Of a stretch of 43,543 nucleotides of DNA, positions 37 through 32,744 are shown piece after piece. A program made the position numbers and the translations under genes. The DNA is taken from the sequence record SRR20825019_2054, one strand, 5' to 3'. Position 1 is the stretch's first letter, and each line of letters starts with the position of its first letter. A model generated the notes under the pieces. It was given only the letters and a program-made list of their open reading frames with translations, was not told the origin of the DNA and ran no database searches.

Positions 37-1586
37 ATCACGCCAGGAACCCCGGTCACGATCACTGCCTTGATGCCGGTCACGGGCCCAGCGGTCGCCG
101 CGATCGTAGCGGTCTCCCCCTCTGCGATCGTATGGGTGGTACCTGCCTTCACCTCGACGCTCGCCGTCTTTTGGGGGTGTCCTGTACCTTTTGAATCTAT
201 TGTATTCTGCACCGATGTGTAAGAGATAGCGAAAAATCATACGTGTGAATAGGAGACTACATACCTGATGTATAGCCTCTGCCCTTACGGGTGATGCCGT
301 CAGGCCCGGGTTTCGGTGGAGATTTCTTGCGAATAGGCGATGGCGACCGCGAAGGTGACTTGGAACGGGAAGATGAGCGATCGCTGCCTCTTTTCCGCAT
401 TTCCTTCTTTGCCTTTTTGGCTTCCTTCTTTGCGCGTTTTTTCTCCTTTTTGGCTTCCTTTTTTGCCTTTTTCGCTGCCTTCTTCTCCTTCTTGCGCGCG
501 CGTTTACGCTCTTCAGAAGAGTCCGTAGATGAGCCTGAGGATGAGTCGGACCTCGAAGACGAGCCAGACGAACGGGAGCGCGATCTTCTCTTCGAGCGAC
601 CTCTGCCCTTCGGAGAGCGAGAGCGTGAAGACCCACTGCTGCTTCTAGAAGAACTTGAAGAAGAGCGTTTTCGGCGCTTCTTGGAATCATCTGGAAATGT
701 TATGAGTTATTCTGTCGTTCGTGAGAGTAGACAATGACATTCCCATGCTTCTATGAAATATTGCCAAACTTATTGCCCCACCATACGCAAGATTTGGCGC
801 AGTGCACACGCAACAAAAATCAAGGCCCTTGGCCCCCTCAGTCCTACCAACTAAAATAACATTTACGACATGAAACTCACCGACACGAACAAGTTCTCCA
901 CAGTTTGATATGGTAATATCAGAGAGAGGCTTGTCCTTTGAGTCGGTCGGCTGGGCCTCAATGGATGTAACGAACTCCATTCCATCAATCACCTGACCAA
1001 ATACAACGTGTTTTCTGCAGCAAAACCCTTGTCAGACAAGAGAGAGCAGTAAAAATTAAGAAACTCACCCATCTAGGTGAGGTGTGGGTCGGGTGATTAT
1101 GAAGAACTGTGAACCGTTGGTGTTGGGTCCAGCATTTGCCATGGAAACCAAGCCCGGTTTGTTATGTGTCAGTTTGAAAGACTCATCGGCAAATTTCCCT
1201 CCATAAATGCTTTCTCCTCCAGTCCCATTGCGATTACTAAAGTCTCCAGACTGAAGCATAAACTTCTTGATCACACGGTGGAAGAGGGTGCCCTTGTACG
1301 TAAGGGGCTTCTTCGTGGTTTTACCAATACCCTTCTCACCTACGAAATATGTGAGCACCACACTCTTCTTCCCTTGTTTTCTAGCTTTTCTACCTGTACA
1401 AAGGCACCTGAAATTCTCGGCAGTCTTAGGCGCGACATCAGAAAACAACTGAATTTTGATGCGACCAAGGGGCGTGTTGCCTATATCAACATCAAGAAAT
1501 ACCACAGGACCTTTTCCCATCTCGGGCCTACTCTTGACACCTGAACAATTAATAGGATCCCAATTCTTTGAAGCGGTACCAATCAT
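1..1586 (-). CDS. PPIG: Cyclophilin-type PPIase with C-terminal RS/RD domain (PPIG/plant CYP63-like); 3' end runs off the window
   Basis: Spliced translation gives the cyclophilin core ([73 protein letters not shown]). It continues into SRSRSP/Lys-rich tracts, [20 protein letters not shown] (resembling the CYP63/PPIG KGRG..RYRTP motif) and RD repeats. GT-AG introns at 1393-1340, 1068-1015, 880-691 and 264-207, plus a probable one at 1579-1541. Start is ATG 1586 or 1520. Confidence 0.9.
695..830 (-). ncRNA. Candidate intronic box H/ACA snoRNA-like RNA
   Basis: Lies inside the only long intron (190 nt). It shows a hairpin at 798-763, ATAGAA (ANANNA) at 754-749, a second stem-pocket-stem hairpin, and ACA at 700-698 followed by TTT. 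The 5' boundary is approximate. Confidence 0.3.
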
Positions 1587-1714
1587 AGCCAAGTCGGAGG
1601 ACACGGAGATGCGTGAACAGGCTCGGCTATGCCCTGGTGGAGTCACAAGTCCCCACTTTGGCAGGCAGTGGGCCCAGCTGTACCTGCGTGTGATTTTCGA
1701 GCGAGTTGTGCGTG

Positions 1715-2260
1715 GTTGGGCCCGGGCCCATCTGCGGGCCGCGCTCCATTGACCTGTACTGGGCTGCGGCCGGGTCCGGCCGGTCCACCGTGAGGCGCCG
1801 GCCCCCCGGCCCGGCGCGACGGATGGCCGCGCCCGCCCCGCCGGGCCGCGACCCTGACCCGCGCCCCGCCGGGCGCCGGCCGGGCCGGCGCGGGCCCGGC
1901 GGGCGCGGCACGGCGGCGGCCCACCCTACCACCGGCTGATCAGTGACGGCCCAGGCCGCCACGACGCCCGGGGGCGGGCTGGCCTGCGCGACGGCCGCGA
2001 CTGATCGACGATCCGATCAGATGATCCTCCTCGAAACGTGCCCTGATTACACCAGGGACCTGGACCCGGCGCTCACACGGCCGGGGCGTCACCGGTGGCG
2101 CGCGGTGGCGGCTACCTGGGCTGGCATTTGATCTGGAAAATGGCGCCAATCGCCGCGGAGGGGGGGTCCGGATCGGATGCCAGGGGACCGGCGGGGCAGT
2201 CTAATCGAGGCGTGAGTCCCGGCCCCGCCCCGCGCAGCCCAGCCAGCGAGCAGCAGGGCC
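1715..2260. promoter_or_regulatory. GC-rich island in the divergent cyclophilin/MSH6 promoter
   Basis: 59 of 60 bases at 1861-1920 are G/C, with dense GGCC/CCGG/GCGC words. It lies between oppositely oriented start codons. GCCAATCGCC occurs at 2145 and, just outside the island, at 2427. Confidence 0.7.
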
Positions 2261-2523
2261 TTCACAACCCGAGTGCAAACAAGGCCATCATGAGTGCTCC
2301 TCCGGATCCAGCATGTTCTAAACCATTGCGGAGAGGGGTGGCCATCGCCCACTCGAGTGGTCTACGTTCTGCGTACTAAGAACGAATAGAGTTCGTGATG
2401 AGTTGGGGGGAAGTCAAAGGCCTACGGCCAATCGCCTTTGAGGTGTGCCTCTAGGTTGCAAAAGCAGCAGTGGTGACAGGACTTCCGTATATAGTTCTGC
2501 GTGCAACAGTCCTCACTCTTATA

Positions 2524-2550
2524 AGAGAGAGAGAGAGAGAAAGAGAGAGA
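2524..2550 (+). repeat. (GA)n microsatellite immediately upstream of the MSH6 ATG
   Basis: agagagagagagagagaaagagagaga ends about 8 nt before ATG 2558. Confidence 0.85.
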
Positions 2551-2557
2551 TCGAGTC

Positions 2558-5500
2558 ATGGGCCACTCCAAATCTCCCTCGGCCCCTAAACAAGCAAACT
2601 CTATCCTGTCTTTCTTTGGAAAGCAGGGTTCGGTCACCAAAGCATCTTCTGCCTCTCCTTCGTCGCCTACCATTTTAACTCCTCCCTTGGAGAACAAGTT
2701 AGTAGTGGGCTATCAAGAGGGCTGTATGTCGCATGCTAACGTTTCATTAAGGACACTGCAACGGACCGGTAGCCGAATTACGGCCCCCACTCCTCCACAT
2801 GCATCCGGGGACACTCCCCAGACAAGGACTGGAGACACTGTCTTCATACGGAACTTGAACACCCGCGGGAAGGTTGTCAGGGTAGGTCAGACTACTAGTC
2901 GCAACAACTTTTGTACTTAAGTTTGGTTAGGTTATCCGCAACCATGAGGGAGACAAGGTCGCCTTTGTTCTAGCAGACAACGGAAAGGAAGTGGAGGGAA
3001 GTTGCTCGTTTGGTGTCGACTTTGACCACGTGCCCTGTCAAGAAACCACTTCTGGGACTGAGGGCCCTGTCAAAGTGGCGGCGACGCCTCAGACCCGCGA
3101 ACCGAGTGAGAGTGAAAAACAGCCCACCTGCGAGGAGAAATCAAAGAAGTCTAGCCTCACTGAGGAGCAGAGGAAGAGGATCGAGGAGAATAGACAAAAG
3201 GCCCTGCAGAAGCTTAACGCCAAGAAGGGTACTGTGTCTGGCCAGACGAAGCTAAACTTCTTTGGTGCCGGTGTCTCAGCTGCGGTGCCTGCTACCACGG
3301 AATCGGAGAAGCCCTCTGTGAGATCACCCCTTGCTAAGAAGGAGCCTGCTACGGTCTCGTCGGCTGAGAAGGCAGCGCCAAAGAAAGAGAACATAGATCC
3401 CGAGCCAAAGGTTTCACGAGCGGTGGAGGATGAGGATGACGGCCCTGTTGTAGGCAGACGTAAGCGTCGTCGAATCAATTATGTGGAGTCTGATGACGAA
3501 GATGACGATGTCAAGCCCCGCGGTGGTAGTGGCAAGGGGTGCCGCCGCGTCAAGAGGATTGATGATGATGACGAGGAGTACAACGCAGAACAGGAAGCCT
3601 CGGAGGAGAGTGAAGATGAGGTGGGTGTAGCGAGGTGTGTCAGGACTGGGCTTTGTAGTGACGAAACGTACGCGTAGGACGATGACGAGCCCTCGGACGA
3701 TGACGAATGTGACATCGAAGCATTGAAGCGCAAGGCCCGCGGCTCCCCCGAACCCAAGCCCAAGGGAGCTAAGCGTGCCAAGCAGGTCAAGCCAGCTCAA
3801 CGCAACAAACCCTCAAAAGAATCCACTCCAGAGCTCGTGGAGAATCCGACTCCTATCGTTCGCCGCCCTGCTCCAGCAGTTGTACCCGGTGAGATCAATG
3901 AAACCATGGACAGCTTCCGCGCTGGTAAAGACCCTGTGGAAGCAACGAATGTCAACACGCACAACTCCAATGCCAAGCAGGTAGCCAAGACCATGTTCAA
4001 TGACAAGGAAGAGGCCAAACGCGAAAAGGAGGCAAAGTTTCAGGAGAAAAACAAGGACCGTTATGAATGGCTCGTTGACATTCGCGATGCCGAAAAGCGG
4101 CGACCGGATAACCCTGACTACGACAAACGCACTTTGTACGTACCTCCCGCTGCATTCGCCAAACTGTCTCCGTTCGAGAAGCAATTCTGGGAGATTAAGG
4201 CCAAACACTTCGATACTGTAATTTTCTTCCGGAAGGGCAAGTTTTTCGAGCTTTACGAGAATGATGCAGATGTAGGTCACCAGGAGCTAGGACTCAAGTT
4301 AACGGATCGCGTGAATATGAGGATGGCTGGAGTGCCTGTTCCTAACTTTGAGATGTGGACCAGCAAGCTACTGGGCCTCGGATACAAGGTTGGAAAGGTT
4401 GAAGAGACGATGACCCGGGCGCAGATGGATAAAGCTGGAAAGTCCGGCATTGTCAAGCGCGAGCTCGTTCAAATCCTCACACAGTCAGTTCATGAAGTCT
4501 GCGACGCTGCAATGATGCTCACGTGTTTCGTGCAGGTCGACAATTGTTGATGTGGACATGATCCAGGCCGATCAATCGTCATACTGTATAGCAATCAAAG
4601 GTATGAGAAAGTTGCTGTCTCGTTCTTAAGTCTGCCGGTAACGGAATGCGCACAGAGGAGCCGCTGCAGTCACCTACAACCTCATCTGCGGTCAAGTATG
4701 GAGTATGTGTTGTTGAGCCAAGTACTGGAGAGATCTACCTAGGCGAGGTACAGTTGACCTGTTGCATGACGTTGTAAAGATAGCAGCGCCTGACGAGTTT
4801 CTGCAGTTTGAAGATGATTCACAGAGGACTCTTTTCCAGACCATGATCGTCCAGCTTCAGCCTCGTGAAATCCTTCATGAGAAGAGCCAGCTTTCTCGCG
4901 AGTCTACCCGAATCATTGTCAATAATGCCTCATCTGCTGCCGTCACAGCCATTAAGCCCGGAGCAGAGTTTTGGGCCAAAGACACAACCGTCGACGAGCT
5001 TCGCTACTCAGAGTACTTTTGCTCTTCAAGGGAGGATGTTGGATCTTCTGGCTGGCCCAAAGTCCTTTCGGAGGTGATTGCTTCTGATCAAGATTGTGCC
5101 CTCTCTGCCCTGGGCGCTTGTGTTTGGTATCTACGTGACTGCATGATTGATAAGGTATGGCGTAGACATCCACAGAGCATTGCCCTTACCCATAGTATCC
5201 AGGATGTAATTTCTATCGGTAATTTCCACCACTACCATGAGTTGTCGCGATCCTCTCGTTATCTCCATATGGATGGTCAGACACTCGTAAACTTGGACAT
5301 TCTGCAGAACAGCTTCACAGGCGACACTCAAGGGACTTTGTTGAAGCACTTGGACCAATGTTCGACTTCTTTCGGTCGCCGTCTTTTCCGCAAATGGATT
5401 TGTCACCCTCTACGTGATGCTCCTGCCATTAATGAACGTCTTGATGCGATCGAGGAGGTATGAGGGTCCATCACACCCCGGGCGTTCTCACACTGACGTT

Positions 5501-7362
5501 GTCGTGCCACATAATCAGCTTAGCGGAGAAGCCGTCGTCGTAGAGCATATGCTAGGAACGTTCCGTCGCATCCCCGATATTGAGCGCCTTTTGTCGCGCA
5601 TACACGCTGGCGCTGCGCGTATCGTTGACCTCATGAAGGTGGAAGAGGGCCTCAATGCGCTTGTTCAAGCCTTGGACTTAGTGGCAAATGAATTGGAAGG
5701 TGGTCAGTTCAAGTCAAGTCTGCTTTGCAAGCATTTTAAGGCTGCATCCGACCATGTTGTGTCTCGTCTTGAGCATTTTTCCAAGGCATATGATCACCAC
5801 CTTGCTAAGGAAAACGGACTACTCATCCCTCAACCTGGTATTGTCCCTGAATATGATGATATCATGGATACTATCAATGGAGCCGAGAAGGAGCTAGCCA
5901 GCTATCTTCAAGAGCAGAAGTCCGTGCTGAAGTGTAGCAAGATTGCTTTTAAGGATATCCAAAAGGAACCTTGGCAGATTGAGGTGCCCGAGGGTGTGAA
6001 AGTTCCGAACGAGTACCAGAAGATGTCCCAGGCAAAGGGTGTCAAGCGCTATTGGACCAGCTTTATTAAGACCCGTGTTTCCACCCTCGACGACGCGAAG
6101 GTAGGATATCTTGTGATCATCCCAATGTTTATTGTCTTACATCATGTACAGTTGGAGAGGGAGTCTGTTCGATCAGTCGTGCTCAAGAAACTTCTTGCTG
6201 ACTTCGACGTGGACTACAAAGCTTGGATGGATCTTACTCAGCGCTTCGCTGAGATTGACTGTTTGATCAGTCTCTCTCGGACATGCTCCCGTGGTGATGG
6301 TATGGGAAACATTTACAGTTTAGATCGGCCTTCCCACTAAATTTTGCAATGCAGGCCCGATGTGTCGCCCCCAGTTCGTGACTTCTCAAAACAGCAAGCC
6401 AGTCCTGGATGTAAAGGGTTTGCGCCACCCCATGGCAGCCCAGACAACTGATTTTATTGCGAATGACACGGTCCTTGGCGGCGCAGACTCACCTGTGGCT
6501 ATGATCCTCACTGGCCCCAACATGGGTGGCAAGTCGACCCTGCTGAGGCAGAACTGCATTGCTGTTATTATGGCCCAGTTGGGATGTTACGTTCCGGCAG
6601 AGTCTTGCCGTCTTTCTCCAGTCGATCGTATCTTCACTCGGATCGGGGCCAATGACCGCATTCTGGCAGGTCAGTCGACATTTATGGTGGAACTTGCTGA
6701 GACGTCCAATATCCTTCGTTACGCCACGAATGAATCTTTGGTTATTCTGGACGAACTGGTAAGCGTGCACAGATGGGTTATCTTGTCTTAGTCGTTGACG
6801 TGAAGACAGGGCCGGGGAACCAGCACATTTGACGGTTATGCCATTGCTCACTCCGTGCTGTCTCACATTGTTCGCGACATTGGATGTCGCACCATGTTTG
6901 CAACTCATTATCATATGCTTGCGGAGGAGTTCGAGAGCCAATCTGACCTTGTTGGCAATGGGCACATGGCCTGTCTGGTGGGTTGAGTTTGTGCAGTAGT
7001 AATTCTAAGACTCACATGTTCCCTAGCTGGAGGACAACAAGCGTGATGTCATTTTCCTGTACAAGCTTCAAAGCGGTATTTGCCCGAAGAGCTATGGACT
7101 CAATGTCGCCCGACTGGCCGGATTCCCTGAAGAGGTGCTCGACAAAGCGCAACTTGCAGCAGAGAACTTTGAGAACAATGAGAAGAGCCTCTCCACATAT
7201 GCCCGTAAGCGCTGTCACAATGCCACACAAGGACTCCCGGATACCGAGCGGGAAACGTTCAAGGTGCTGTACTACGAGTTGTTGGATACAACACGCATCG
7301 GCAGCAACCTCAGTCTGGATGTAATCAAGTCTTGGCAAGACAAGCTGAACGGGATGGCCTGA
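2558..7362 (+). CDS. MSH6: DNA mismatch repair protein MSH6 (MutS-alpha subunit), ~12 introns
   Basis: Contains [28 protein letters not shown] (MSH6-typical), the mismatch-binding GKFFELYE, Walker [43 protein letters not shown] and [11 protein letters not shown]. Introns include 2698-2751, 2882-2930, 3621-3677, 4484-4535 and 4601-4655. Stop TGA ends at 7362. Confidence 0.96.
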
Positions 7363-7520
7363 AGGAAATGGTTTAATCATACTTGACTAAATATGCTTTT
7401 CAAGATCAGTTTCTGGGCATAAGGGAGGCTCCATTGTAGTCGCAGTTTCGCGAGCGAACCCTGTCACAATATAACGCAGGCATAGCAGAAGTTACTGGAA
7501 TATGTCACGGGCGGTCGATC

Positions 7521-9790: not shown

Positions 9791-10255
9791 GTCTGTCCGA
9801 CAATCTCACCCCATCGAGATTGATAAGTCGGAAATTGAAATTCCCATATTAGAGGTCGAACCGCCCCAAAGCGCCCAGATTTGTGACCACCCACCACACA
9901 AAGCCAATCGAGCCGTCCGATAATACCGACAGCCGTCCGGGTCAGCAGACCAGCTGCATAGTCAGTGTTTGCGCCTACCACGATAGAATCATCAAGGGCA
10001 CTACAGAGAAGGCTATCCGTAGCCGTGAGTGTGGCAATGACATCGCTCCTTATCCTGTTCACTAGGCTTGAACAGCTCTGAAGCCCTTTCCGGCCGCAAT
10101 GGACCTGCGCTGACAAACTAGATGCACAAGAGTGCTCGACAACATACCGCTGCGGAACTAGTTTGGGACCGGGGAGGTGTAGTACAGATTCGTGAGGTCC
10201 TATCAATAAGTACATGTACACGCACAGCTGCGAAGATGTGAACGTTTAGGTTAAG

Positions 10256-12933
10256 ATGTCTAAGTTCTGGCAGGCTGATTCCGCCTCTGAGTCCGAGGAA
10301 GAGTCTTCTGAGGAAGAGGAGACGATTGTGCAGGCTCCTCAGAAGCAGGGATTCTTCCGTGATGACTCTTCTGACTCTGAGGAAGACGTGAGTTGTAATT
10401 GTGCAACGGCTGGGGTGTGGAATTGACAGTACATGTTTCATAGGAGAGGCGAGTCGTTAAGTCCGCACGGGATAAGAAGGCTGAGGAAATTAAGAACTTG
10501 GCTGCCACCACTAGAAGTTTCATGAACATTAATGATTGGGGTCAGATTCAGTCTAGCTATGAAAAGTTTCATAACTTCGTCACCAAAATGAAGGGCAACC
10601 AGTTTGAGAAGGTGTCCCCTAAAGCATACGACGCATATTATCGCCTCTGCATCCACTTGGAGGAATTCGTTAATAAGAGCTTGGCCGATAAGGAAGCCAA
10701 GAAGAAGTTGAGCACCACCAACTCTAAAGCGCTGAACTCCATGAAACAGAAGATTCGTAAGAACAACAAAGAAATTGAGGGTCTTCTTGAGGCTTTTAAG
10801 AAGAAGCCTAACTGGGAAGATTCTGCTTCTGAGGTAGGGCTGTTGATGTTGTTGTTTGTTGAGGGTTTTCTCTAAACGAAGGTTTAGTCTGAGGAAGAGT
10901 CTGAGGAAGAGTCTGAGGAGGAGTCTGAGGAGGAGGACGTGAAGCCAACAAAGGGACAGGTAGCTGCTCCTGTGCAAGGTGATGAAGATGATGACGACGA
11001 TGGCTTTGAGACCAAGGCAGTGAAGGATAAGAGGTGGCGCAAGGCCAAGCAGGAGGCTGCGGCTAAGATGACTATGGAGGGCGTGAACAAACGCCTTGCA
11101 GAAATTATTTTGGCGAGGGGCAAAAAGGGAACAGACCGCATGGATCAGGTCAACCAGATTCAGGACTTGGTGAAGCACTGTGAAGAGGTGCCGTCAAAGA
11201 AGGTGGAGATCACGATGCATTTGATTTCTGCTTTGTTCGATGTCAACCCTAACATGACCTCTCACATGCCCATTGAGCTGTGGAAGGAATGTGCTAAGAA
11301 TATTGGTATTATCTTGGATGTGATTGAGGCTGACAAGAACATTGTGGTGGTGGATGCTGGCGCTGTCGCCAAGACTCCTCTTGATATGGGAGATGTACAG
11401 GAAGAAAATGCGGAGGCGGAGGCGGAGGCGACGAAGGCTGAGGCAGAAGACGATGGCGACAACGTGAAGGTTGTGGGAAGCCTCATTTCCTTCATGGAGC
11501 GCTTGGACGACGAGCTTTTCAAGAGTCTCCAGCACACCGACCCTCACACCCAAGCATACATGGATCGCCTCAAGGACGAGCCCACTATGATCTCTCTTGC
11601 TGAGCGTACTCAGGCTTACTATGAGCGCGCCAATCAGATGGACTGTGCTGCCCGTGCTGCTGGGCGTGTGATTGAGCATGTGTATTACAAGCTTGATTCC
11701 CTTCGTGAAATGATGGACAGCGCCGTCGGCAAGACTGGCGAGAAGATTGACAGCAAGGAACAGATTCAGAGCCTTGCTGTAATGATTTACAAGTACGGTG
11801 ATGAACGCGCCAAGACTAGAACCATGCTGTGCCACATCTATCATCATGCCATGCATGATCGCTTCTACGAGGCCCGCGATATGCTCCTGATGTCTCATCT
11901 TCAGGATACCATTTATCACTCGGATGTCACCACTCAGATCATGTACAACCGCACCATGGTTCAAGTTGGTCTCTGCGCATTCAGGGCGGGACTGATTACG
12001 GATTCCCAGGCTGCTTTGTGCGAAATCTGCTCTGGCGGTAGGCTTAAAGAACTTCTTGCCCAGGGCATTAGCGTGTCCCGTTTCGGTGAGCGCAACATTG
12101 AGCAGGAGAAACTCGAGAGGAGGAGGCAGATGCCCTACCACATGCACATTAATTTGGAACTCCTTGAGTGTGTGCATTTGATTACCTCCATGCTTCTCGA
12201 AGTGCCAAACATGGCTGCAAACCGGTACAACCCCAAGGTTAAGGTTATCAGCAAGCCTTTCCGGCGGTTTTTGGATAACTATGAGAGGCAAGTTGTTGCC
12301 GGGCCCCCCGAGAACAACCGTGACGTCATTATGGCTGCGGCAAGCAAACTTGCCTTGGGAGAGTGGCAGAAGTCCTGCGATTATCTGTTCAGCCTTGGAA
12401 TCTGGAAGCTCTTCGTCAACCCCGATGCCTGCAAAGAAATCTTGAAGGGATGCATTAAGGAGGAAGGCTTGCGCACTTTCCTTTTCCAGAACTGTTCCAA
12501 TTATGAGAGCATGACCACGGAGCAGCTCTGCCGCTTGTTCGAGATGGAAGAGAAGGAGGTTCACACTATCGTAAGTAAGATGATGATGAGCAACGAGTTG
12601 AACGCCTCCTGGGATCAGCCAACTGGTACCATCATCATGCACAACGTAGATCCCACTCGCTTGCAGTATTTGGCAATGAACTTTGCTGAGAAGGCTGCTC
12701 TCTTTGTTGAGACCAATGAGCGGCTTTTGGACTCGCGCACGGGTGGTTATGGATACAAATTCGACCCGAACCAGAAGCCTCAGGCCCGCCAGTTCCGTGA
12801 TAGGGAGATTTACAACCCTCGTGGTGTAAGCTCCATGTATGCTGCCAGCCGTCAGTTCCCGCAGAACAGGCAGCAATACCAAGCCTATCAGCAGCGCAAG
12901 GCCTATGGGCAGCGCACTGCTCAGCGGTATTAG
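10256..12933 (+). CDS. EIF3C: Eukaryotic translation initiation factor 3 subunit C
   Basis: N-terminus MSKFW..SESEEE; after the first intron, RRVVKSARDK. Also ERLDDELFKSLQHTDPHT, ARDMLLMSHLQ, RRQMPYHMHINLELLECV and the PCI C-terminus SKMMMSNELNASWDQPT. Two short introns near 10388 and 10834. Confidence 0.97.
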
Positions 12934-13086: not shown

Positions 13087-16000
13087 TCAAACGAAGTCCT
13101 CACTGTCACTGCCATTATTCTTCGCTTCATTATCTTCCTCGCTAGTCCAATCCTCTAGGAGATCATCTTCAACACTTCTAGTGGGCTCGGTTGTGGTTTG
13201 CACACAGGCAGCAGTAACCAATCCTTTTTCAAACATGTTAATCAAGGCTGATTCAACTACTACGTCGCTCGAATGCATGCTTCTCTTGTCTATCCATCCT
13301 GGCACCTGTGCCCAAAACCGTGAGAATTCATTCATTGCATGGACAGACATCTAGTGTGACGCGCACCTTTCCGTCATCGGACTTTTGATCTACACGTAAC
13401 ATGTCTAGGGTATCAGAAGATTCAGTATCTACTAACTGGAATAGATTCTTGAGGTCATCCTGTGAACTAATTGAGAAAATATTCACGCCTACAATCCAGG
13501 CATCTCTACCTTGCTGAACTGGGCTTTCCCTTTCTTAGCATCATCTACAACTTTGAGACTAAGGCCGCGCTTGGTCATTTGACGTTGATATATTTTTTCC
13601 TCCAAGGTACCGGTGCACATCAAGCGATATATTGTCACGTCTTTTTTCTGGCCATCTCGCCAAACCCGTGCCTAACGAACACCCTCAATCCACAATATAT
13701 CGATGTCAAATAAAAGTGGTGGACATACCATAGCTTGTAGATCATTGGCAGGATTCCAGTCTGGATCGTACAGCACAAGTCGATTGGCCCCAATGAGGTT
13801 AAGACCTATTCCGCCGGCCTTGGAGGAAAGCAAGAAAACATAAACCTTGCTCCACTTGGCATTGAACTGGTTCACTAATTGTTGACGTTTTGTTGCCTCA
13901 GTCTGGCCATCAAGCCTCAACGTATCGTACCCCCGATCATTACACAACCGTTGCAAGAGGTCTAGAGTTTGTGTGTAATTTGAAACCACCACAACTCTGT
14001 CACTAGTCGTTGATTTCACGTGTGCCAACAATTCATCAAGGCATTGCATCTTGCCAGAGTACTGAGGTTGAGCTTTCCCAGGAGTATAATGTTCAGGGAA
14101 GTGGTCAAGAGCACCCGCCCATGAATCCGTGGATAGCGCCTTATCATCTACAATTCACCCCTTCAGTCATTATTTGGTTTACACCACCGCCTTCGAGTAC
14201 ATACCATCGTCACTCAAGCAAGAGCCATTGCCGTGTTCGGTGCATTTCATGTGAATCAATTCAGGATGGTTGCACAGTTTCTTCAAATTGGTTACACATT
14301 CGAATACACAACTAGTCGCTGTTTTTCCAGAAGTGTACATCAGACTGGTCACAACCTTCGATCTCAGGAAGTGCTTGTACAGTCGGCACTGCAAGTCCGA
14401 CATTGCGCAAAACAAGACAATCTGGAGGAACAAGAATGAGGGTACATCAAGACTGCCTCCCGAACAAAACATACTTCTTTCTTGGGCGGAAGGTATTTCT
14501 CGTTGATCTCATTAGTTCTGCGCAGGATGAAAGTTGCAGTAAGCTCGGAAAGGGCCTTTGACCGGGCATTTGCAAGTCTCCTTTCATCAGAACTGGCATC
14601 CTTGGAATTAGCAGAGTCGATTGGTTCAGCGTATACTCTGTGGAACAAATTAGCAGAAAAAAAAGACATCCAAGGAGCACCAAACCTTCTGAATGTTGGG
14701 CAATCTCCAAGAAAGCCTGGGTTGACGAAATCACACATTGCAAAGAATTCATCCATGTCATTTTGAACAGGAGTCCCGCTGAGAAGTAGACGCTTCCTTG
14801 TAGTAACCGATTTCAGGGCCCCATATAGTTTGGTCTCCTTGTTCTTCAAGCGGTGGCCCTCATCGCAAACAATAAGATCACACACATTTGCGACAGCTTT
14901 TTGGTGCTTTCTAAACATATCATATGATATTATAAGCAGTGGCCATCTGCCGCACTTGTAATCTTGAATGCGACTATCTACTCCGCCCTCTCCAGTATCA
15001 GCAAGAATTGGATCGAGTCTTTCTGTGCCTAGCCATTTCTTGACTTCCGCCATCCAATTCTTACATAGTGACGACGGGCATACCACCATGGCCTTCTTAA
15101 TCAAGGGTTTACCATAAGGACCTTGTTTTAAAAGTGTCCACAATGTAGCAATAGTTTGAACAGTCTTCCCAAGACCCCTGATATCACAATCTTTCAGAAC
15201 CATGAACCTGAGCTATCCAAACTCTTACATTTCATCAGCAAGGATGGCGCCTCGCCCTTGCTTTCCTGAAGACATATCATTAAGGCAGTTGTATAGAAAC
15301 TTGACTCCTTCAACCTATCGATGTTTAGACGGTTGATAACATAAGCATCACACTTCGCCTCACTTGATGTGGCCGCAGATGGCGACCAATCACGGGATCA
15401 CAAACAACATCACAAGTGGGCTTGCCATTGATATCTACTCCACCCTCTTGTAAAAGATGGGCCCCTTCACTATCTCGGCTAATCAAAGACTTCGGCACAG
15501 GTTGCGCTCCGCCCTTGTTACTGGAATTTCCTTCCACTTTGTGTGACTTGAACTTCTTTGCGGTGGGAATAGATGGTTTTGGTATGGCGGTTGTTGCTGC
15601 TGGAGTATCAGAGTGCAATATACACCCTCGATTGATTTCATACCTGAGCAAGAAAACATCCGAAAAAGCTTTCCACTATTATAGTCTTCTTCGCTAGCCT
15701 CACTAACGATTTCTAGTTCTTTTTGGCCAACCTCCAGGGTAGAGCCAATAACCATGGTCAAGTTGTTATAATTTCCTTGAGCCACAGTTTTCCCCTCCGT
15801 GTCCTTCAAGCACACTTTCTTCTTGTTGAATATTGTAAGAATTCCTGCGATGCCATGAGCACCCTGAAAGGGTAGATGTAAGGAGTACATACCATCTTGA
15901 TATGACTTATGTTTCTTGTTGCTTCGTTTGGTATACAGAACTACATAATATTTCGTATCAGCATCTGTGCAGTCAGTGGGGCCCCTGCTCGTAAGCCCAG

Positions 16001-16374
16001 ATCTGCTTGTAGGTGTATTTGGCCCTGTCTGGCCTAGACCCAAACCGTAAATAAGATGGGATGATGTACCCAGTCACGACAACATACCTGACTTGACAGA
16101 AGGAGGAACGAAGCCCTTTCGAATTGGATTCACTAAGCTTGAAGAGGAGGGTTTCACCTGCAGAATCATGTTGTTATTTTTGACAGGGTAATTGTTTTCC
16201 TTTTCGTCTATTTGTGTTTCTCCAGATACCATGTCAGAAGCACTTCGTTTTGTGGGGACAATGAATCTGTGCGAAGTTAAAAGGCATGTCAAGGACGTCA
16301 AAAAAGTCCTACTTAGCCTGGAAGGAAGTCCCGCCACCCTGATGCCGCGCTTTCAGAATTGCGCTCCGTTTCAT
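13087..16374 (-). CDS. RAD54B: RAD54B/Rdh54-like SNF2-family DNA translocase with N-terminal DUF2439-like domain
   Basis: Starts MKRSA at ATG 16374. [32 protein letters not shown] is the RAD54B/Rdh54 N-domain. Helicase motifs: [80 protein letters not shown]. Multiple short introns. Confidence 0.92.
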
Positions 16375-19268: not shown

Positions 19269-20733
19269 CTATGCATCTTGTTCACTCTTGAAGATCTCGG
19301 TTGCAGATTTGTCATATGACCCTTCTGTGCGCATATCGTTAAGGCCCAGCTCTTCGTTCTGCTCTGCAGTGCGCTCATACACCTCTGTGGTCATGTTTGG
19401 GTCAGGATCAGGAGCATATAAATTCTGAATGTAAGAATTGCTCATGGGATCGTCAATTATCAACACGAGCTCCTCGGCGAGAGTCAAGTCACCACCCTTC
19501 AACTTTTCCAACTTTTCAATGAGCGCGCCAAACTTACTTCTCTGATCACTAGTGGCAGAATCGCCAGCTGCGAAAGGATTGAATTCCTTCATGTGGTCGA
19601 TGGTCTGGTTAAGGAAGCCCTCAATAGTAGTAAACATTCCTCCCAAAGTCCCTGGAGCAAGCTCTAGCTCAAAAGCTGGAATGAGCACAGCTGCGGTATC
19701 GGACTTCAAGAAATCACGCGAGAGATCCTCCTCCATAGTCAATTTTAGGGAAATTTTCTTTCCCTTGGGCTCCATTTTACCGCCGGGTTTGATCTCAATA
19801 CTCTTATAGCCACACTGTTCACAGTTGAAGCTCATCAAGACGATCTCCTTGAAGTTAGGAATATTTGTGACCTTCATCCGGTTTACTCCAGCAGCATTGC
19901 AGGTGGAGCAGTTCACAGGCAATTCAACTACTTCCTCTGTTAAATTGATAGGCTCCTCTGCAACTTGCTCGGCTTCTTGAATGCCAACAGAAGCATTTTG
20001 CGCAGCATTGCGAACATAGTGTTCTTCCTTGAGGTCAGGGTCAGCCTGGGGCATCTTAGGGTTCTCAACAAACGAATTGCCAGAAGGGTCATCCAATACA
20101 AAAGTATACGGCATCTCACACTTGTGAAGCTGGCGCATTTTCTCAATAACTGCATCAATCTGAGCCGTTGTTGCAGGATCGATTTTCTGTTGAGAAATCG
20201 TCTAAGTTCTTCGGAAAGCTTTATGAATATTGCACATACCCTTCTCTCCTCTTGGCCAGCTTCCAAGTTGTCGGCCGCGGTCATGAGAATCCCTTCGATC
20301 GTGGAACACACACCCCGCTGAGTGATAGACGGGATCTCAAGGTCAATCTCAGGAATCATGATTGAGGCGTGCTCAGACTTGATGACTTGCCTACTAGCCG
20401 ACTGAGAATATGTAAGCTACTGGTAAGGCACACCGCGCTACACACGTCTAAAGATACCTCTGGTGTTTTCACGGACACAGTGTACTTTGACCCTTTGACC
20501 TGGATTTCGCCGGCACTTTGAACTTCGGTGTTTCGGAAGTTGCAGTGGGGACAGGCAAAGCTCATCAATATTACTTCCTTGAAATGAGGAATTCGGGTTA
20601 GAAACAGCTTGGTGGAACCGTTTTCATGGCAAGCCATGCACAAAGATTCCATTTCAGTGACGCCGCTTCCTTCATTGTCTTTGACGTTTTCCCATGTAAG
20701 GTTAGGAAAGTGCACAGTTTCTTCGTCACCCAT
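19269..20733 (-). CDS. ZPR1: Zinc finger protein ZPR1
   Basis: Two ZnF/A-domain modules: ESLCMACHENG..IPHFKEVILMSFACPHCNFRNTEVQ and CSTCNAAG..IPNFKEIVLMSFNCEQCGYKS. Also TLGGMFTTIEG, SYIQNLYAPDPDP and EQNEELGLNDM. Two introns. Confidence 0.97.
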
Positions 20734-26830: not shown

Positions 26831-26989
26831 CTGCGCCAATCTCCTGTATGCTACAATGTTACCTTCTCCATTCTCACTCGCGAGTGAGCCAATCATCGTT
26901 CTACGATGACAACGCCGAACTTGATAAGAATCAAGTGTCCTCAGGAGTATAGGTGTGAACTCAGCGAGACGTCGGGGCAGCAGGTGACG

Positions 26990-29830
26990 ATGTCGGAAAT
27001 CCCGACAAACTTGCAAATAGCTCCGCCAAGAACACCTTCAATGCACTCAGCAAGACCACCTCCATCGCGTGGCCATGCGATTGATAAATTTCTGGACAAG
27101 TCTCACTTGGCACTAGATCTCAAGTCTTTGCACAGCGGGAATAGTGGAGTTCGCGTAACTCCATCAATGGCTCAGCATCGCGCAAGCGATAGGCGGCCAA
27201 CTACCCAGGGCAGTAACAAACCAAGGTCATCGATACATAGCAGCCAACGGGGTCATCATACACCAGCAAAGGCTGCACAGGAGGCAATGAAGCCATCGGA
27301 GACTGCTGGTCAAGAAAGGAGGCCACGGACCAGTGGGGAGGTCACGCAGAAGGCAGATCCCTTCCAGGTCTTTTTCCGTCCAGCAATAGACAAAAGTGGT
27401 GCCGTTACTCAAGACCTGCTTGGTAGAATTCAGGTAAAATTCCAGAAAGCTGTTTCTCAAGACAAGTTCGCTATCCAAAAAGCCTTTGCTTTCTTCGATC
27501 GTGACGGCAGTGGCTCTATCGGATTCGACGAGTTCAAGAAAACGCTGCTGGACAATAATGTGTGGGTAACCGACCGGGAAGTTGCAGCACTCATCAAGAG
27601 ATATGATACAAACAATGACGGGCGGATTTCGTATTATGAGTTTTTGGATGCTGTGGCCCCATACGCTGTTGCTGCCCCGCCTAGCAAAGAGAAAAGTAAG
27701 TATTTCCGAATGATACTCTATCCCAATATGAACACATATCTAACTGCTGCCGTCAGTGAGGGAGTATGAGGTAAAGAAGGAGGAAGCTAGGTTAGAGAAG
27801 AATGTTAGATGGGCAATCCATGTTGCCAGAGACAAGATTCAGCAAAGGGTAAGAGGAGATGCCTTTGAGGTCAGGAACCAGTTCCGTGTACTTGACAAGG
27901 ATGGAATCGGTGCAATATCTGTCAAAGATTTTAGGATGGCACTCAAGAACTTCAACCTAGGACTCTCGGAACGGGAATTGGATACACTCGTGAAGAAGTT
28001 CGACTATGATGGCGATGGATTCATCACTTATCATGAGTTTATCAAATTTATCCTCCCTTCAGACCACGATGCCAAGGCCATTGTTGGGGAAGATGGAGTT
28101 CCATTGGTGCCACCTACCCCTGAGCTTCACAAAGCGGCAAGAAATCGGACACTTATAAAGATGAGAGGACTACTAGAGAAGAAAGGTAAGGTCGCGCAAT
28201 CACTTTCTCTTGGCAAAGTTTTGACTAGTAAGACTTCAGTCCTTGGAAGGATTAAGGGACGTGCAAATGACATTGCCAAGGCATTCGAGTTTTTTGATCG
28301 GGATGGAAACGGCAAGGTGGATGAAGGAGAGTTCAAGCATGTCCTGGACATGTTTAGCATTCATTTGGATCATAGAGATTTTCAGTTGCTTATGAAGTAC
28401 TTTGATACTGACGGGGATAACATGATATCGTACAGTGAATTCATGGAGGGACTTAGCAACAAGAAATTGGAAAGTTTGCAGGACGGAATTACTCAGGAAA
28501 AGCTCGAGCAACTGGAGAACGCTGATAAGGAGGAGGTACAGGCCATGATTAACGGACAACCGGTGCCCCCCCAAGTGAAGAAAACGCTGGACATCCTCCA
28601 GGAGAAGTTTACCACGCAGTTTCAAGAAGTTGGGCCACAGTCACTGCTGAAGGCGTTCCGCCACTATGACAAGAATTCAGATGGTGTCATCACTGCGGAT
28701 GAGTTCTCCCGCATCATGTTGGACAACAATATTCCTATCACTCGCAGTCAAATGCAGCGTGTTATGAGAGTATTTGACAAAAACAAGGACGGGCACATAG
28801 ACTACAGAGAATTTGTGCGAGGGCTGCTTCCACCACAGGCTGATTTTGAGCACGCAAAGGTGCCGACAGATGGGCCTCCGTCCACGGCTCATTCGCACAT
28901 CTCAAATATTCCGGATACGAAGGCTCTACAATATGTTGACGAATCCTTCAAATGTTTCCATGTGCGGCCACCAAAACTATATGAGGCTACTGTTCCTGAG
29001 GAAGCTCTGCGTGATGAACTGGACCCTGAGATTTTGATGATGCCAGCCAAGCGACGAATGCTACAGGAAATGCAGATTAAGGAAACTGTCGCCCATCGTT
29101 TGCTCCGAAAGGATCGAAACGACCAGGCGCGGCTATACACTCTGATGCAGAAGAGGTACCCTAATGGTGTTCTTGGTGTTGACTCTCCTGCTATGGAAGG
29201 AACTCAGGTTTATGCTGAACAACGGGAGAAAATGTACAAGGACTCCGTGAAGTGGTACAATAAGTTTGTAGCGCGCCAAGAAAACCTGGTGAAACGGAAC
29301 AATGCCGGAGTTGGGTATGACTTCTTGCATTGGCCCGAAACTCGTGAGGGCCAGGCACAATACAATGCAGCTCTTGATAAGAACAAGCCAGGGGAAAGGC
29401 AACAGTACTCTGGGACCTTTGGGCATCCTGGTGGGCGGCTGTTTGATAGCACTGAAAGGAATTATAAGGTCATGCAGGGCAAGAAGCAGTGTGAAAAAAA
29501 TTCGTGGGACTCATTCAGGTTCGAGACCAATATATCGGAGAATCCTCTTAACTTCAGGAGAATGGTTAATCTGCGCAACCACAGTGAGTATTCTCCGAAT
29601 GAAAGCGGACGCTGCTTAAAACTGATTTGTGTCGCGTAGATTCTAATGGACGGGGTTACAATATCGTTACAGGTCATTTGACCGAGCACTGCCCACCGAC
29701 GCAAGCACCCAAGGTGAATAGTCGACTGGAACACCCTTCCATGAATATTGGAACCGCAAGCACATCAGGGTATCTTGCACCACAGCATCACGATTGCCAC
29801 AAGAACACAAATCCAAGAGATTATTACTAA
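26990..29830 (+). CDS. Multi-EF-hand calcium-binding protein (8 EF-hands in 4 pairs; EFCAB6-like architecture) with an uncharacterised C-terminal region
   Basis: EF loops: DRDGSGSIGFDE, DTNNDGRISYYE, DKDGIGAISVKD, DYDGDGFITYHE, DRDGNGKVDEGE, DTDGDNMISYSE, DKNSDGVITADE and DKNKDGHIDYRE. Start is ATG 26990 or 26906. The last intron (~29584-29639) leads to TAA ending at 29830. Confidence 0.85.
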
Positions 29831-32642: not shown

Positions 32643-32744
32643 GGCGGCAAAACCAACTCAGACAGTTACTCTTGAACGTGTAGTAAGCCCATAGAAATAT
32701 GAAACCCGGGTGCCAGAGCCAGAGTCTTGCTTGCACAACACAGG

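What the first reader, a model, noticed from the sequence alone, without database searches (positions are those of the whole stretch)
3156..3227. MSH6 carries a near-perfect SMARCAL1-type RPA32-binding motif
The exon encodes [24 protein letters not shown]. From memory, the human SMARCAL1 N-terminal RPA32C-binding helix is [23 protein letters not shown], so 16 of the first 17 residues match. The motif family is known from SMARCAL1, TIPIN, UNG2, XPA and ETAA1, but I do not know it from MSH6. It is in frame with the MSH6 body (ORF 2991-3677 spliced at 3621-3677 into the MutS domains) and flanked by PIP-like boxes, giving a UNG2-like PCNA+RPA dual tether. Inference: MutS-alpha here may be recruited directly to RPA-coated ssDNA at forks, excision gaps or recombination intermediates. 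That would be an undescribed route for targeting mismatch repair.
Basis: partly seen in the sequence, partly recalled or inferred. Interest (0 to 1): 0.82.

Follow-up and report, generated by a model that had tools for sequence, protein, structure and literature searches.

The report
RPA-binding helix inside an MSH6 gene
A eukaryotic mismatch-repair gene (MSH6) carries, in its flexible N-terminal tail, a near-exact copy of the short helix that SMARCAL1 and TIPIN use to dock on the single-strand-DNA protein RPA; a few distant MSH6 relatives have it too, and I found no paper that describes it.

Summary
Window 2558-7362 (+) is a 13-exon MSH6-type gene giving a 1387-aa open frame. Exon 3 encodes [17 protein letters not shown] (3156-3206). 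This matches 16 of 17 residues of the SMARCAL1 peptide crystallised with RPA32C (4mqv_B, E 1.7e-4) and includes the RQK triad.

One assembled contig from a public run lacks all 12 GT..AG introns. It joins the motif exon to the MutS domains.

An HMM built only from SMARCAL1, TIPIN and XPA family motifs scores the window at 39.8 bits. Among 208 MSH6-type proteins it finds the motif in six. The other five are Tieghemiomyces, Dispira, Conidiobolus, Polychytrium and Chromosphaera. In all six a PCNA-box-like motif starts 28-40 residues after the motif start, so this is a conserved cassette.

Both PIP-like boxes in the window miss the canonical spacing by one residue.

RPA binding itself was not tested.

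Nine literature searches found no description of this motif in MSH6.

Verdict: this is a real, probably functional RPA32C tether on MutS-alpha. It is rare and patchy among MSH6 orthologues, so it is a new variant of a known kind. Interest is moderate.

The parts
2558..7362 (+). MSH6-type gene: ATG to stop, 13 exons, 12 GT..AG introns of 48-61 nt, spliced frame 1387 aa
   Evidence: Introns and frame computed from the joints. Pfam MutS_I, II, III, IV and V found in the exons. Best homologues are named MSH6.
2591..2617 (+). N-terminal PIP-like box QANSILSFF (aa 12-20). It is canonical from A13 on, except that Gln sits one place too early.
   Evidence: Translation. Relaxed pattern matched. The strict PIP pattern found nothing.
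2831..3032 (+). Beta-rich segment of about 51 aa between the first PIP-like box and the motif, split by intron 2882-2930. It may be a small SH3/Tudor-like module, unverified.
   Evidence: Weak Pfam hit to the MSSS SH3 domain on the exon-2 half only (E 0.0032, 17.6 bits, below the cut-off of 26.8). The PDB sequence search of the exon-3 half gave nothing usable.
2931..3620 (+). Exon 3 (230 aa), which holds the motif. It has no Pfam family and is otherwise low-complexity and charged.
   Evidence: Flanking introns 2882-2930 and 3621-3677 are removed in contigs of runs X1 and X2.
3156..3227 (+). RPA32C-binding-type helix (aa 166-189); the core 17-mer is 3156-3206
   Evidence: 4mqv_B at E 1.7e-4. 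Profile hits to SMARCAL1, TIPIN and Rad14 chains. 39.8 bits with an HMM that holds no MSH6 sequence.
3192..3200 (+). RQK triad (aa 178-180) inside the helix
   Evidence: Sequence. PMC11109976 states that RQK is conserved in SMARCAL1 and RAD52 and that RQK to AAA reduces RPA32 binding.
3243..3263 (+). Second PIP-like box QTKLNFF (aa 195-201), starting 29 residues after the motif start; one residue short of the canonical spacing
   Evidence: It aligns with canonical PIP boxes that follow the motif in five other MSH6 proteins.
3264..4169 (+). Remainder of the charged, low-complexity N-terminal region, running up to MutS domain I (includes intron 3621-3677)
   Evidence: The 229 aa after the cassette hold 52 D/E, 42 K/R and 83 P/S/T/A/G. 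No Pfam family found.
4170..4483 (+). MutS domain I with the Phe-X-Glu mismatch-contact site (GKFFELYE)
   Evidence: Pfam PF01624, E 3.1e-28. Translation. The Phe-X-Glu site is described in PMC10743813.
6501..7170 (+). MutS domain V (ATPase) across three exons, with Walker [10 protein letters not shown]
   Evidence: Pfam PF00488 on three exon translations (E 5e-41, 2.3e-14, 9.2e-10). Translation.

Best explanation
The gene encodes the MSH6 subunit of MutS-alpha. Its disordered N-terminal region contains a cassette of two short docking motifs. [quoted passage not shown] The second, about a dozen residues later, is a PCNA-box-like motif.

The most likely function is that the helix docks MutS-alpha on RPA-coated single-stranded DNA, while the PIP-like boxes dock it on PCNA. 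This would concentrate the mismatch sensor where ssDNA and clamps coexist, such as lagging-strand gaps, excision tracts and recombination intermediates.

Shown here: the motif, its reading frame, its presence in a spliced contig, its membership of the motif class by sequence, and its conservation as a cassette in six MSH6 proteins.

Inferred: that the helix binds this organism's RPA32C, and every downstream consequence of that binding.
For: 1. Sequence match. 16 of 17 residues are identical to the SMARCAL1 peptide co-crystallised with RPA32C, and 17 of 17 to a bird SMARCAL1. The RQK triad, whose mutation lowers RPA32 binding in SMARCAL1 and RAD52 (PMC11109976), is present.

2. Class membership.
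- The cassette profile against 1.84 billion representatives gave 405 hits at E <= 1e-3.
- Of the best 150, 48 had a Pfam family at E <= 1e-4: 26 SNF2/HARP (SMARCAL1-type), 6 Swi3 (TIPIN), 2 XPA and 2 MutS.
- In PDB the single-stretch hits were SMARCAL1, TIPIN and Rad14. These are the partners listed in PMC11387677.

3. Independent HMM. It was built from 68 motif stretches of 35 SMARCAL1/TIPIN/XPA proteins and holds no MSH6 sequence. The window scores 39.8 bits. Five other MSH6 proteins score 19.5-38.0. The best of the remaining 202 scores 7.1.

4. Cassette. In all six proteins a PIP or PIP-like box starts 28-40 residues after the motif start. In a six-way alignment of the N-terminal regions, 20 of the 50 well-conserved columns fall in window residues 166-203. 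The rest are scattered charged or proline columns.

5. Helix face. The invariant or near-invariant positions 1, 5, 8, 9, 12, 16 and 19 lie between 340 and 80 degrees on a helical wheel. Variable positions lie elsewhere.

6. Expression form. One contig of run X1 (5792 nt) covers 2558 to beyond 7500 with all 12 introns removed. It differs from the window at 5 bases, 4 synonymous and 1 giving R253P, and none lies in the motif.
Against: - No binding test of any kind was possible. No genome is held, so the organism's RPA32 was never seen.
- The motif is absent from 202 of 208 MSH6-type proteins examined, including Capsaspora, Salpingoeca, Creolimax, S. pombe and all Dikarya sampled. MutS-alpha clearly works without it.
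- The PIP-like box beside the motif is one residue short of the canonical spacing, and the N-terminal one has its Gln displaced.
- The 35 proteins used for the independent HMM were themselves retrieved with a profile that contained the window's motif, so that test is not fully independent.
- The library type of runs X1 and X2 is not on record. That they are cDNA is inferred from the missing introns.
- Contigs drop rare isoforms, so an exon-skipped minor form cannot be excluded.
Confidence: 0.6

Rival explanations
1. The helix is real and conserved but serves another purpose. It could be a nuclear import signal, a non-specific DNA or chromatin contact of the MSH6 N-terminal region, or a dock for a partner other than RPA32C.
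For: The segment is rich in K/R and lies in a charged low-complexity region. 102 of the 150 best profile hits have no Pfam family, so the partner of many such helices is unknown. No binding test was done.
Against: The match is position-specific, not compositional: L1, Q5, N12 and A16 are invariant or nearly so. The only characterised families recovered in numbers are the known RPA32C partners. The RQK triad is kept.
Confidence: 0.22
2. The motif is a recently captured or drifting relic with no selected function in MSH6. It would have been copied from another motif-bearing gene and be on its way to loss, which would explain the patchy distribution.
For: 6 of 208 MSH6-type proteins carry it. On a 44-row MSH6 tree the state changes 6 times. 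The neighbouring PIP-like box in the window is degenerate.
Against: The same cassette order and spacing recur in lineages as far apart as an ichthyosporean (Chromosphaera) and chytrid or zoopagomycete fungi. It is the only conserved block of the N-terminal region. Some absences are truncated gene models: Dimargaris P0050 has 50 aa before the MutS I lead, and 17 of 207 proteins have fewer than 150.
Confidence: 0.12
3. Gene-model or assembly artefact: the motif exon belongs to a separate upstream transcript and is not part of MSH6.
For: Contigs cannot prove a single molecule. The library type of the runs is not on record.
Against: One contig crosses all 12 introns with exact GT..AG boundaries and keeps one open frame of 1387 aa. 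BLASTP alignments to P0004, P0045 and P0255 begin at the motif and run on through the MutS core.
Confidence: 0.03

Closest known systems
SMARCAL1 N-terminal RPA32C-binding motif (PDB 4mqv)
   Same: An almost identical 17-mer with the RQK triad. It is a short helix in an otherwise non-domain region near the N-terminal part of a DNA-repair protein.
   Different: The host protein is a MutS-family mismatch sensor, not an SNF2/HARP annealing helicase. The residues after position 17 differ (QKLNAKK in the window against ARRAEK in the 4mqv chain). The motif is internal (aa 166) rather than at the extreme N-terminus.
TIPIN (Swi3/Csm3 family) and XPA/Rad14 RPA32C-binding motifs
   Same: They belong to the same profile class: 7pfo_L at E 2.5e-6 and 5lcl_B at E 0.12 with the cassette profile. 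Six Swi3 and two XPA proteins are among the best 150 hits.
   Different: They are less similar to the window than SMARCAL1 is, and no PIP box follows the motif in the hits inspected.
UNG2 N-terminal tail (PCNA box plus RPA32C motif)
   Same: It works like this: a disordered tail carries both a PCNA dock and an RPA32C dock ahead of a repair enzyme. UNG2 is named as an RPA32C partner in PMC11387677 and PMC10598209. Its PIP box is recalled, not checked here.
   Different: The element order in the MSH6 cassette is RPA motif then PIP. No UNG2 sequence was compared here, because the UNG2 peptide did not appear in the PDB searches.
MSH6 N-terminal region of yeast, human and Tetrahymena (PCNA tether; PWWP in animals)
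   Same: A long disordered N-terminal region with a PCNA-interacting motif sits ahead of MutS domain I (PMC10743813 passages).
   Different: The passages I read in that paper and in a 2026 mismatch-repair review (PMC13644597) mention no RPA-binding motif in Msh6. 202 of 208 MSH6-type proteins lack it.

Membership tests
MSH6 (mismatch-binding subunit of MutS-alpha) | MutS domains I to V in order | tested here: met
   Pfam PF01624, PF05188, PF05192, PF05190 and PF00488 found on successive exons. The MutS_II hit scored 22.8 bits, just under its cut-off of 25.
MSH6 (mismatch-binding subunit of MutS-alpha) | Phe-X-Glu mismatch-contact motif in domain I | tested here: met
   GKFFELYE appears in the exon-4 translation. 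The motif is described in PMC10743813.
MSH6 (mismatch-binding subunit of MutS-alpha) | Closest homologues are MSH6 rather than other MutS paralogues | tested here: met
   Every listed protein that carries a functional name and is not a fusion or a misnamed record is called MSH6 or a MutS protein. Identity over the core is up to 47%. No explicit tree with MSH2 or MSH3 was built.
MSH6 (mismatch-binding subunit of MutS-alpha) | Long N-terminal extension with a PCNA-interacting box | tested here: inconclusive
   About 440 aa lie ahead of domain I. Two PIP-like boxes are present, and both are off the canonical spacing by one residue.
RPA32C-binding motif (SMARCAL1/TIPIN/XPA/UNG2 class) | Sequence match to a motif whose complex with RPA32C is solved | tested here: met
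   4mqv_B at E 1.7e-4, with 16 of 17 residues identical.
RPA32C-binding motif (SMARCAL1/TIPIN/XPA/UNG2 class) | RQK triad needed for RPA32 binding in SMARCAL1 and RAD52 | tested here: met
   RQK lies at aa 178-180, window 3192-3200. Its role is stated in PMC11109976.
RPA32C-binding motif (SMARCAL1/TIPIN/XPA/UNG2 class) | Forms an alpha-helix with one conserved, basic binding face in an otherwise disordered region | tested here: inconclusive
   Conserved positions cluster on one helical face by arithmetic, and the exon has no Pfam domain. No structure prediction could be run.
RPA32C-binding motif (SMARCAL1/TIPIN/XPA/UNG2 class) | Physical binding to the RPA32 C-terminal winged-helix domain | not testable with these tools
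Canonical PIP box | Qxx[ILM]xx[FY][FY] (consensus recalled) | tested here: not met
   The strict pattern matches nowhere in the 1387-aa protein. QANSILSFF and QTKLNFF are near misses. The five other motif-bearing MSH6 proteins do have canonical boxes.

The most novel reading that the evidence does not exclude
The 'RPA32C helix followed by a PCNA box' cassette may be an ancestral feature of opisthokont MSH6. If so, MutS-alpha was originally coupled to replication through both RPA and PCNA. The RPA leg would then have been lost repeatedly, including in animals, Dikarya and every model organism, which would explain why it has never been described. In carrier lineages, RPA-coated gaps would be a direct loading platform for mismatch recognition or heteroduplex rejection.
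Probability: 0.2. Interest if true: 0.72.

Novelty: new variant of a known kind. Interest (0 to 1): 0.55.

Why it matters
In the passages I read, MSH6's N-terminal region is described as docking on PCNA and, in animals, on H3K36me3. A direct RPA32C dock would be a third route. It would place the mismatch sensor on single-stranded gaps rather than on duplex DNA or clamps. That bears on how repair is coupled to lagging-strand synthesis, excision tracts and recombination intermediates.

The finding also shows that the RPA32C helix is a portable module that different lineages attach to different repair and replication proteins. The same search found it on a Pol delta small-subunit-like protein, on GRF zinc-finger proteins, on a deaminase and on a RING protein.

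The practical weight is limited. The carriers are non-model protists and early-diverging fungi, most MSH6 proteins lack the motif, and binding is untested.

Tried and rejected
- Whole-genome search for the organism's RPA32 (Pfam PF08784): no genome is held for this window. No own-RPA32 test and no complex-prediction job were therefore possible, and a stand-in from another host was judged not worth a job.
- The look-up of sequencing runs, kind rna: no RNA holder is listed. The two holders have no library type on record.
- Region-limited homologue search with the motif: 31 candidates and 2 hits. One was a protein with several motif copies (P0123) and one a bird SMARCAL1. This was too insensitive to use as a survey.
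- Metagenome scan with the cassette profile: 22 loci encode a related helix. tblastn with the spliced MSH6 found only the helix in 9 of them and no MutS domain in any. Three short contigs (L008, L019, L020) looked by eye like XPA-type genes, and L003 like a large P-loop helicase ORF; these were not scanned against Pfam.
- PDB search with the profile: TALE-repeat proteins top the list at E down to 1e-13, but only by summing many sub-threshold repeats (0 stretches pass). I rejected these as spurious.
- PDB sequence search of the beta-rich segment: only RecA fusion constructs, with 0 passing stretches. Rejected.
PMC4020579 (Feldkamp 2014) is not held, so the contact residues in the solved complex could not be read.
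- Lineage placement. On a 44-row MSH6 tree the window sits as sister to all sampled fungi with SH-aLRT 87, unstarred, on a long branch of 0.96. I treat the lineage as unresolved. The rows were hand-picked from 207 proteins, one per genus of interest, and the rest were left out.
- Rfam scan of the window: no family reached its gathering score.
- Supplementary files of papers were closed. Motif alignments in the supplements of PMC10598209 and PMC11109976 may list further carriers that I could not see.
Full report
**What is in the sequence**

Window 3156-3227 reads, in frame, [24 protein letters not shown]. It lies in a stop-to-stop frame at 2931-3677.

Pfam places MutS domains I, II, III, IV and V on successive open frames downstream, between about 4170 and 7170. 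The translations show the Phe-X-Glu site (GKFFELYE) and a Walker A (GPNMGGKST).

The best 120 of 1313 homologues of the domain-I exon are almost all named MSH6, mostly from early-diverging fungi. Identity in that exon is at most 59%.

**Gene model and transcript evidence**

Two public runs from one study hold the stretch. Their library type is not on record.

Laid on 2400-7500, their contigs skip twelve segments of 48-61 nt, each bounded by GT..AG. One contig of run X1 (5792 nt) covers 2558 to beyond 7500 with all twelve removed.

Joining the exons by coordinate gives one open frame of 1387 aa, from ATG 2558 to a stop ending at 7362. The two introns around the motif exon are 2882-2930 and 3621-3677.

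Contigs that lack every intron are what assembled cDNA looks like, so the motif exon and the MutS domains sit in one spliced form. The contigs differ from the window at five shared bases. Four are synonymous and one gives R253P in the low-complexity tail. None touches the motif.

Contigs cannot exclude a rare exon-skipped isoform.

**Is the resemblance more than chance?**

- Against all PDB chain sequences, the 44-aa stretch hits the SMARCAL1 peptide of 4mqv first. This is the co-crystal with RPA32C. The score is E 1.7e-4, with 16 of the first 17 residues identical. TIPIN follows at E 0.08.
- A bird SMARCAL1 carries the 17-mer unchanged.
- PMC11109976 prints the human SMARCAL1 5-30 peptide used for RPA32C binding. 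It states that the RQK triad is conserved in SMARCAL1 and RAD52 and that RQK to AAA lowers RPA32 binding (passages). The window keeps RQK at 3192-3200.
- In a six-frame scan of the whole window (1012 frames), this is the only site. It scores 42.7 bits and the next best scores 3.3.

**Does it belong to the RPA32C-motif class?**

I built a profile of the motif plus the following PIP-like box from the window and four MSH6 orthologues. I ran it against 1.84 billion representative proteins. It gave 405 hits at E <= 1e-3, and the best 150 are listed.

Pfam scans of those 150 gave a family for 48 at E <= 1e-4:
- 26 SNF2/HARP (SMARCAL1-type)
- 6 Swi3 (TIPIN family)
- 2 XPA
- 2 MutS
- 2 GRF zinc finger
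- single cases of a Pol delta small-subunit OB domain, a RING finger, a cytidine deaminase, a DEAD helicase and others

The other 102 had no family.

In PDB, the profile's single-stretch hits are SMARCAL1 (1e-7), TIPIN (2.5e-6) and yeast Rad14 (0.12). TALE repeats rank higher only by adding up many sub-threshold repeats, and I discard them. SMARCAL1, TIPIN, XPA and Rad14 are the RPA32C partners named in PMC11387677 (figure legend) and PMC10598209.

I built an HMM from 68 motif stretches of 35 proteins that Pfam assigns to the SMARCAL1, TIPIN or XPA families. It holds no MSH6 sequence. I scanned 208 MSH6-type proteins: 120, 86 new ones, Chromosphaera P0255, and the window.

Scores for the six positives:

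| Protein | Bits |
|---|---|
| Window (aa 164-188) | 39.8 |
| P0004 Tieghemiomyces | 38.0 |
| P0013 Dispira | 33.3 |
| P0045 Conidiobolus | 28.9 and 31.5 (two copies) |
| P0052 Polychytrium | 24.7 |
| P0255 Chromosphaera perkinsii (name) | 19.5 |

The best of the other 202 scores 7.1. The split is clean: 6 of 208.

One caveat applies. The 35 training proteins were found with a profile that included the window, so independence is partial.

Some absences come from truncated gene models. Dimargaris P0050 has only 50 residues ahead of the domain-I lead, Massospora P0311 is partial, and 17 of 207 proteins have fewer than 150 residues there.

**A conserved cassette**

In all six proteins a PIP or PIP-like box begins 28-40 residues after the motif's first residue. 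In the five orthologues that box is canonical and the cassette sits at the extreme N-terminus.

In the window the cassette is internal (aa 166-201). Its box, QTKLNFF, is one residue short. A second PIP-like box, QANSILSFF (aa 12-20), and a beta-rich segment of about 51 aa lie upstream.

The strict PIP pattern matches nowhere in the window's protein.

In a six-way alignment of the N-terminal regions, 50 of 217 well-filled columns have four or more identical residues. Twenty of those fall in window residues 166-203. The rest are scattered D, E, K, R and P columns.

Across the seven motif copies, positions 5, 12 and 16 are invariant, and positions 1, 8, 10 and 11 are identical in six of seven. 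Positions 1, 5, 8, 9, 12, 16 and 19 lie within a 100-degree arc of a helical wheel. That is what a one-sided binding helix should look like.

BLASTP alignments of the spliced protein to P0004, P0045 and P0255 start at the motif and run through the MutS core.

**Distribution and origin**

On a 44-row MSH6 tree the motif state changes six times. The carriers span Holozoa (an ichthyosporean) and Holomycota (a chytrid, Dimargaritales and Conidiobolus).

The window's own branch is long and sits unsupported as sister to the sampled fungi, so I leave its lineage open.

The same order and spacing in such distant carriers favours an old cassette with many losses. Repeated capture of a portable helix is not excluded. 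A tree cannot tell gain from loss without more sampling.

**What was not shown**

No RPA32 sequence of this organism, or of any eukaryote, was available. Binding is therefore inferred from sequence class alone.

A metagenome scan added no further MSH6 carriers.

**Literature**

Nine full-text searches found no paper that describes an RPA32C-type motif in MSH6.
- An RPA review (PMC8210275) does not contain the terms MSH6, MutS or mismatch repair (term search).
- The passages returned by a term search (RPA, PIP box, N-terminal) of a 2026 mismatch-repair review (PMC13644597) mention no such motif in Msh6.

Subscription-only papers and supplements were not searchable.

**Verdict**

The PIP claim needs softening. 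This is a new variant of a known kind: a known docking helix on a new host, forming a dual RPA and PCNA cassette in a minority of MSH6 proteins.

Noticed in passing
window 2831-2881 and 2931-3032: A beta-rich segment of about 51 aa lies between the first PIP-like box and the RPA motif and is split by an intron. Its first half gives a sub-threshold Pfam hit to the MutS2/Smr-associated SH3 domain (E 0.0032). It could be a small reader module, comparable to the PWWP domain of animal MSH6 or the Tudor domain of plant MSH6 (both recalled).
   Followed up: partly
window 13672-16073, minus strand: An SNF2-family helicase gene with SNF2-related, Helicase_C and ZGRF1-like N-terminal domains. It has no HARP domain and no RPA motif, so it is not the organism's SMARCAL1.
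   Followed up: partly
P0195, P0226, P0245, P0187, P0156, P0213 (public proteins): The same RPA32C-type helix, often in two copies, sits on several other proteins. These are a Pol delta small-subunit-like protein that also starts with a PIP-like box, two GRF zinc-finger proteins, a cytidine-deaminase-domain protein, a RING protein and a DEAD helicase fragment. The helix looks like a portable module.
   Followed up: partly
P0125-P0127, P0129-P0131, P0123 and others: Many proteins of 200-600 aa carry 2 to 7 tandem copies of the helix. 102 of the 150 best profile hits have no Pfam family. What these multi-copy proteins are is unknown.
   Followed up: no
window 2512-2557: A GA-rich simple repeat lies directly upstream of the MSH6 start codon. 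The read-laying tool skipped it as a repeat.
   Followed up: no
window 29865-32657 (-) and 34512-39446 (+): Two very long open frames (930 and 1644 aa) have no Pfam family. The 36-40 kb stretch has strong purine skew on the + strand (AT skew 0.32, GC skew 0.16).
   Followed up: no
window 257-1925 (-), 10250-12933 (+), 19269-20201 (-), 26888-29639 (+): Neighbouring genes are a cyclophilin with an R/S/K-rich region in an adjacent frame, eIF3 subunit c, ZPR1, and two EF-hand proteins. None is related to RPA or mismatch repair.
   Followed up: partly
PDB TALE-repeat chains: Each TALE repeat weakly resembles the start of the RPA motif. Summed over 15 or more repeats, this gives misleading whole-sequence E-values down to 1e-13 with no single passing stretch. 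This is a trap for anyone scanning with this motif.
   Followed up: yes
window 6585-6586: Run X2's contig differs from the window and from run X1 by two adjacent bases in codon 1163 (Cys) of MutS domain V. This could be an allele or an assembly error.
   Followed up: no
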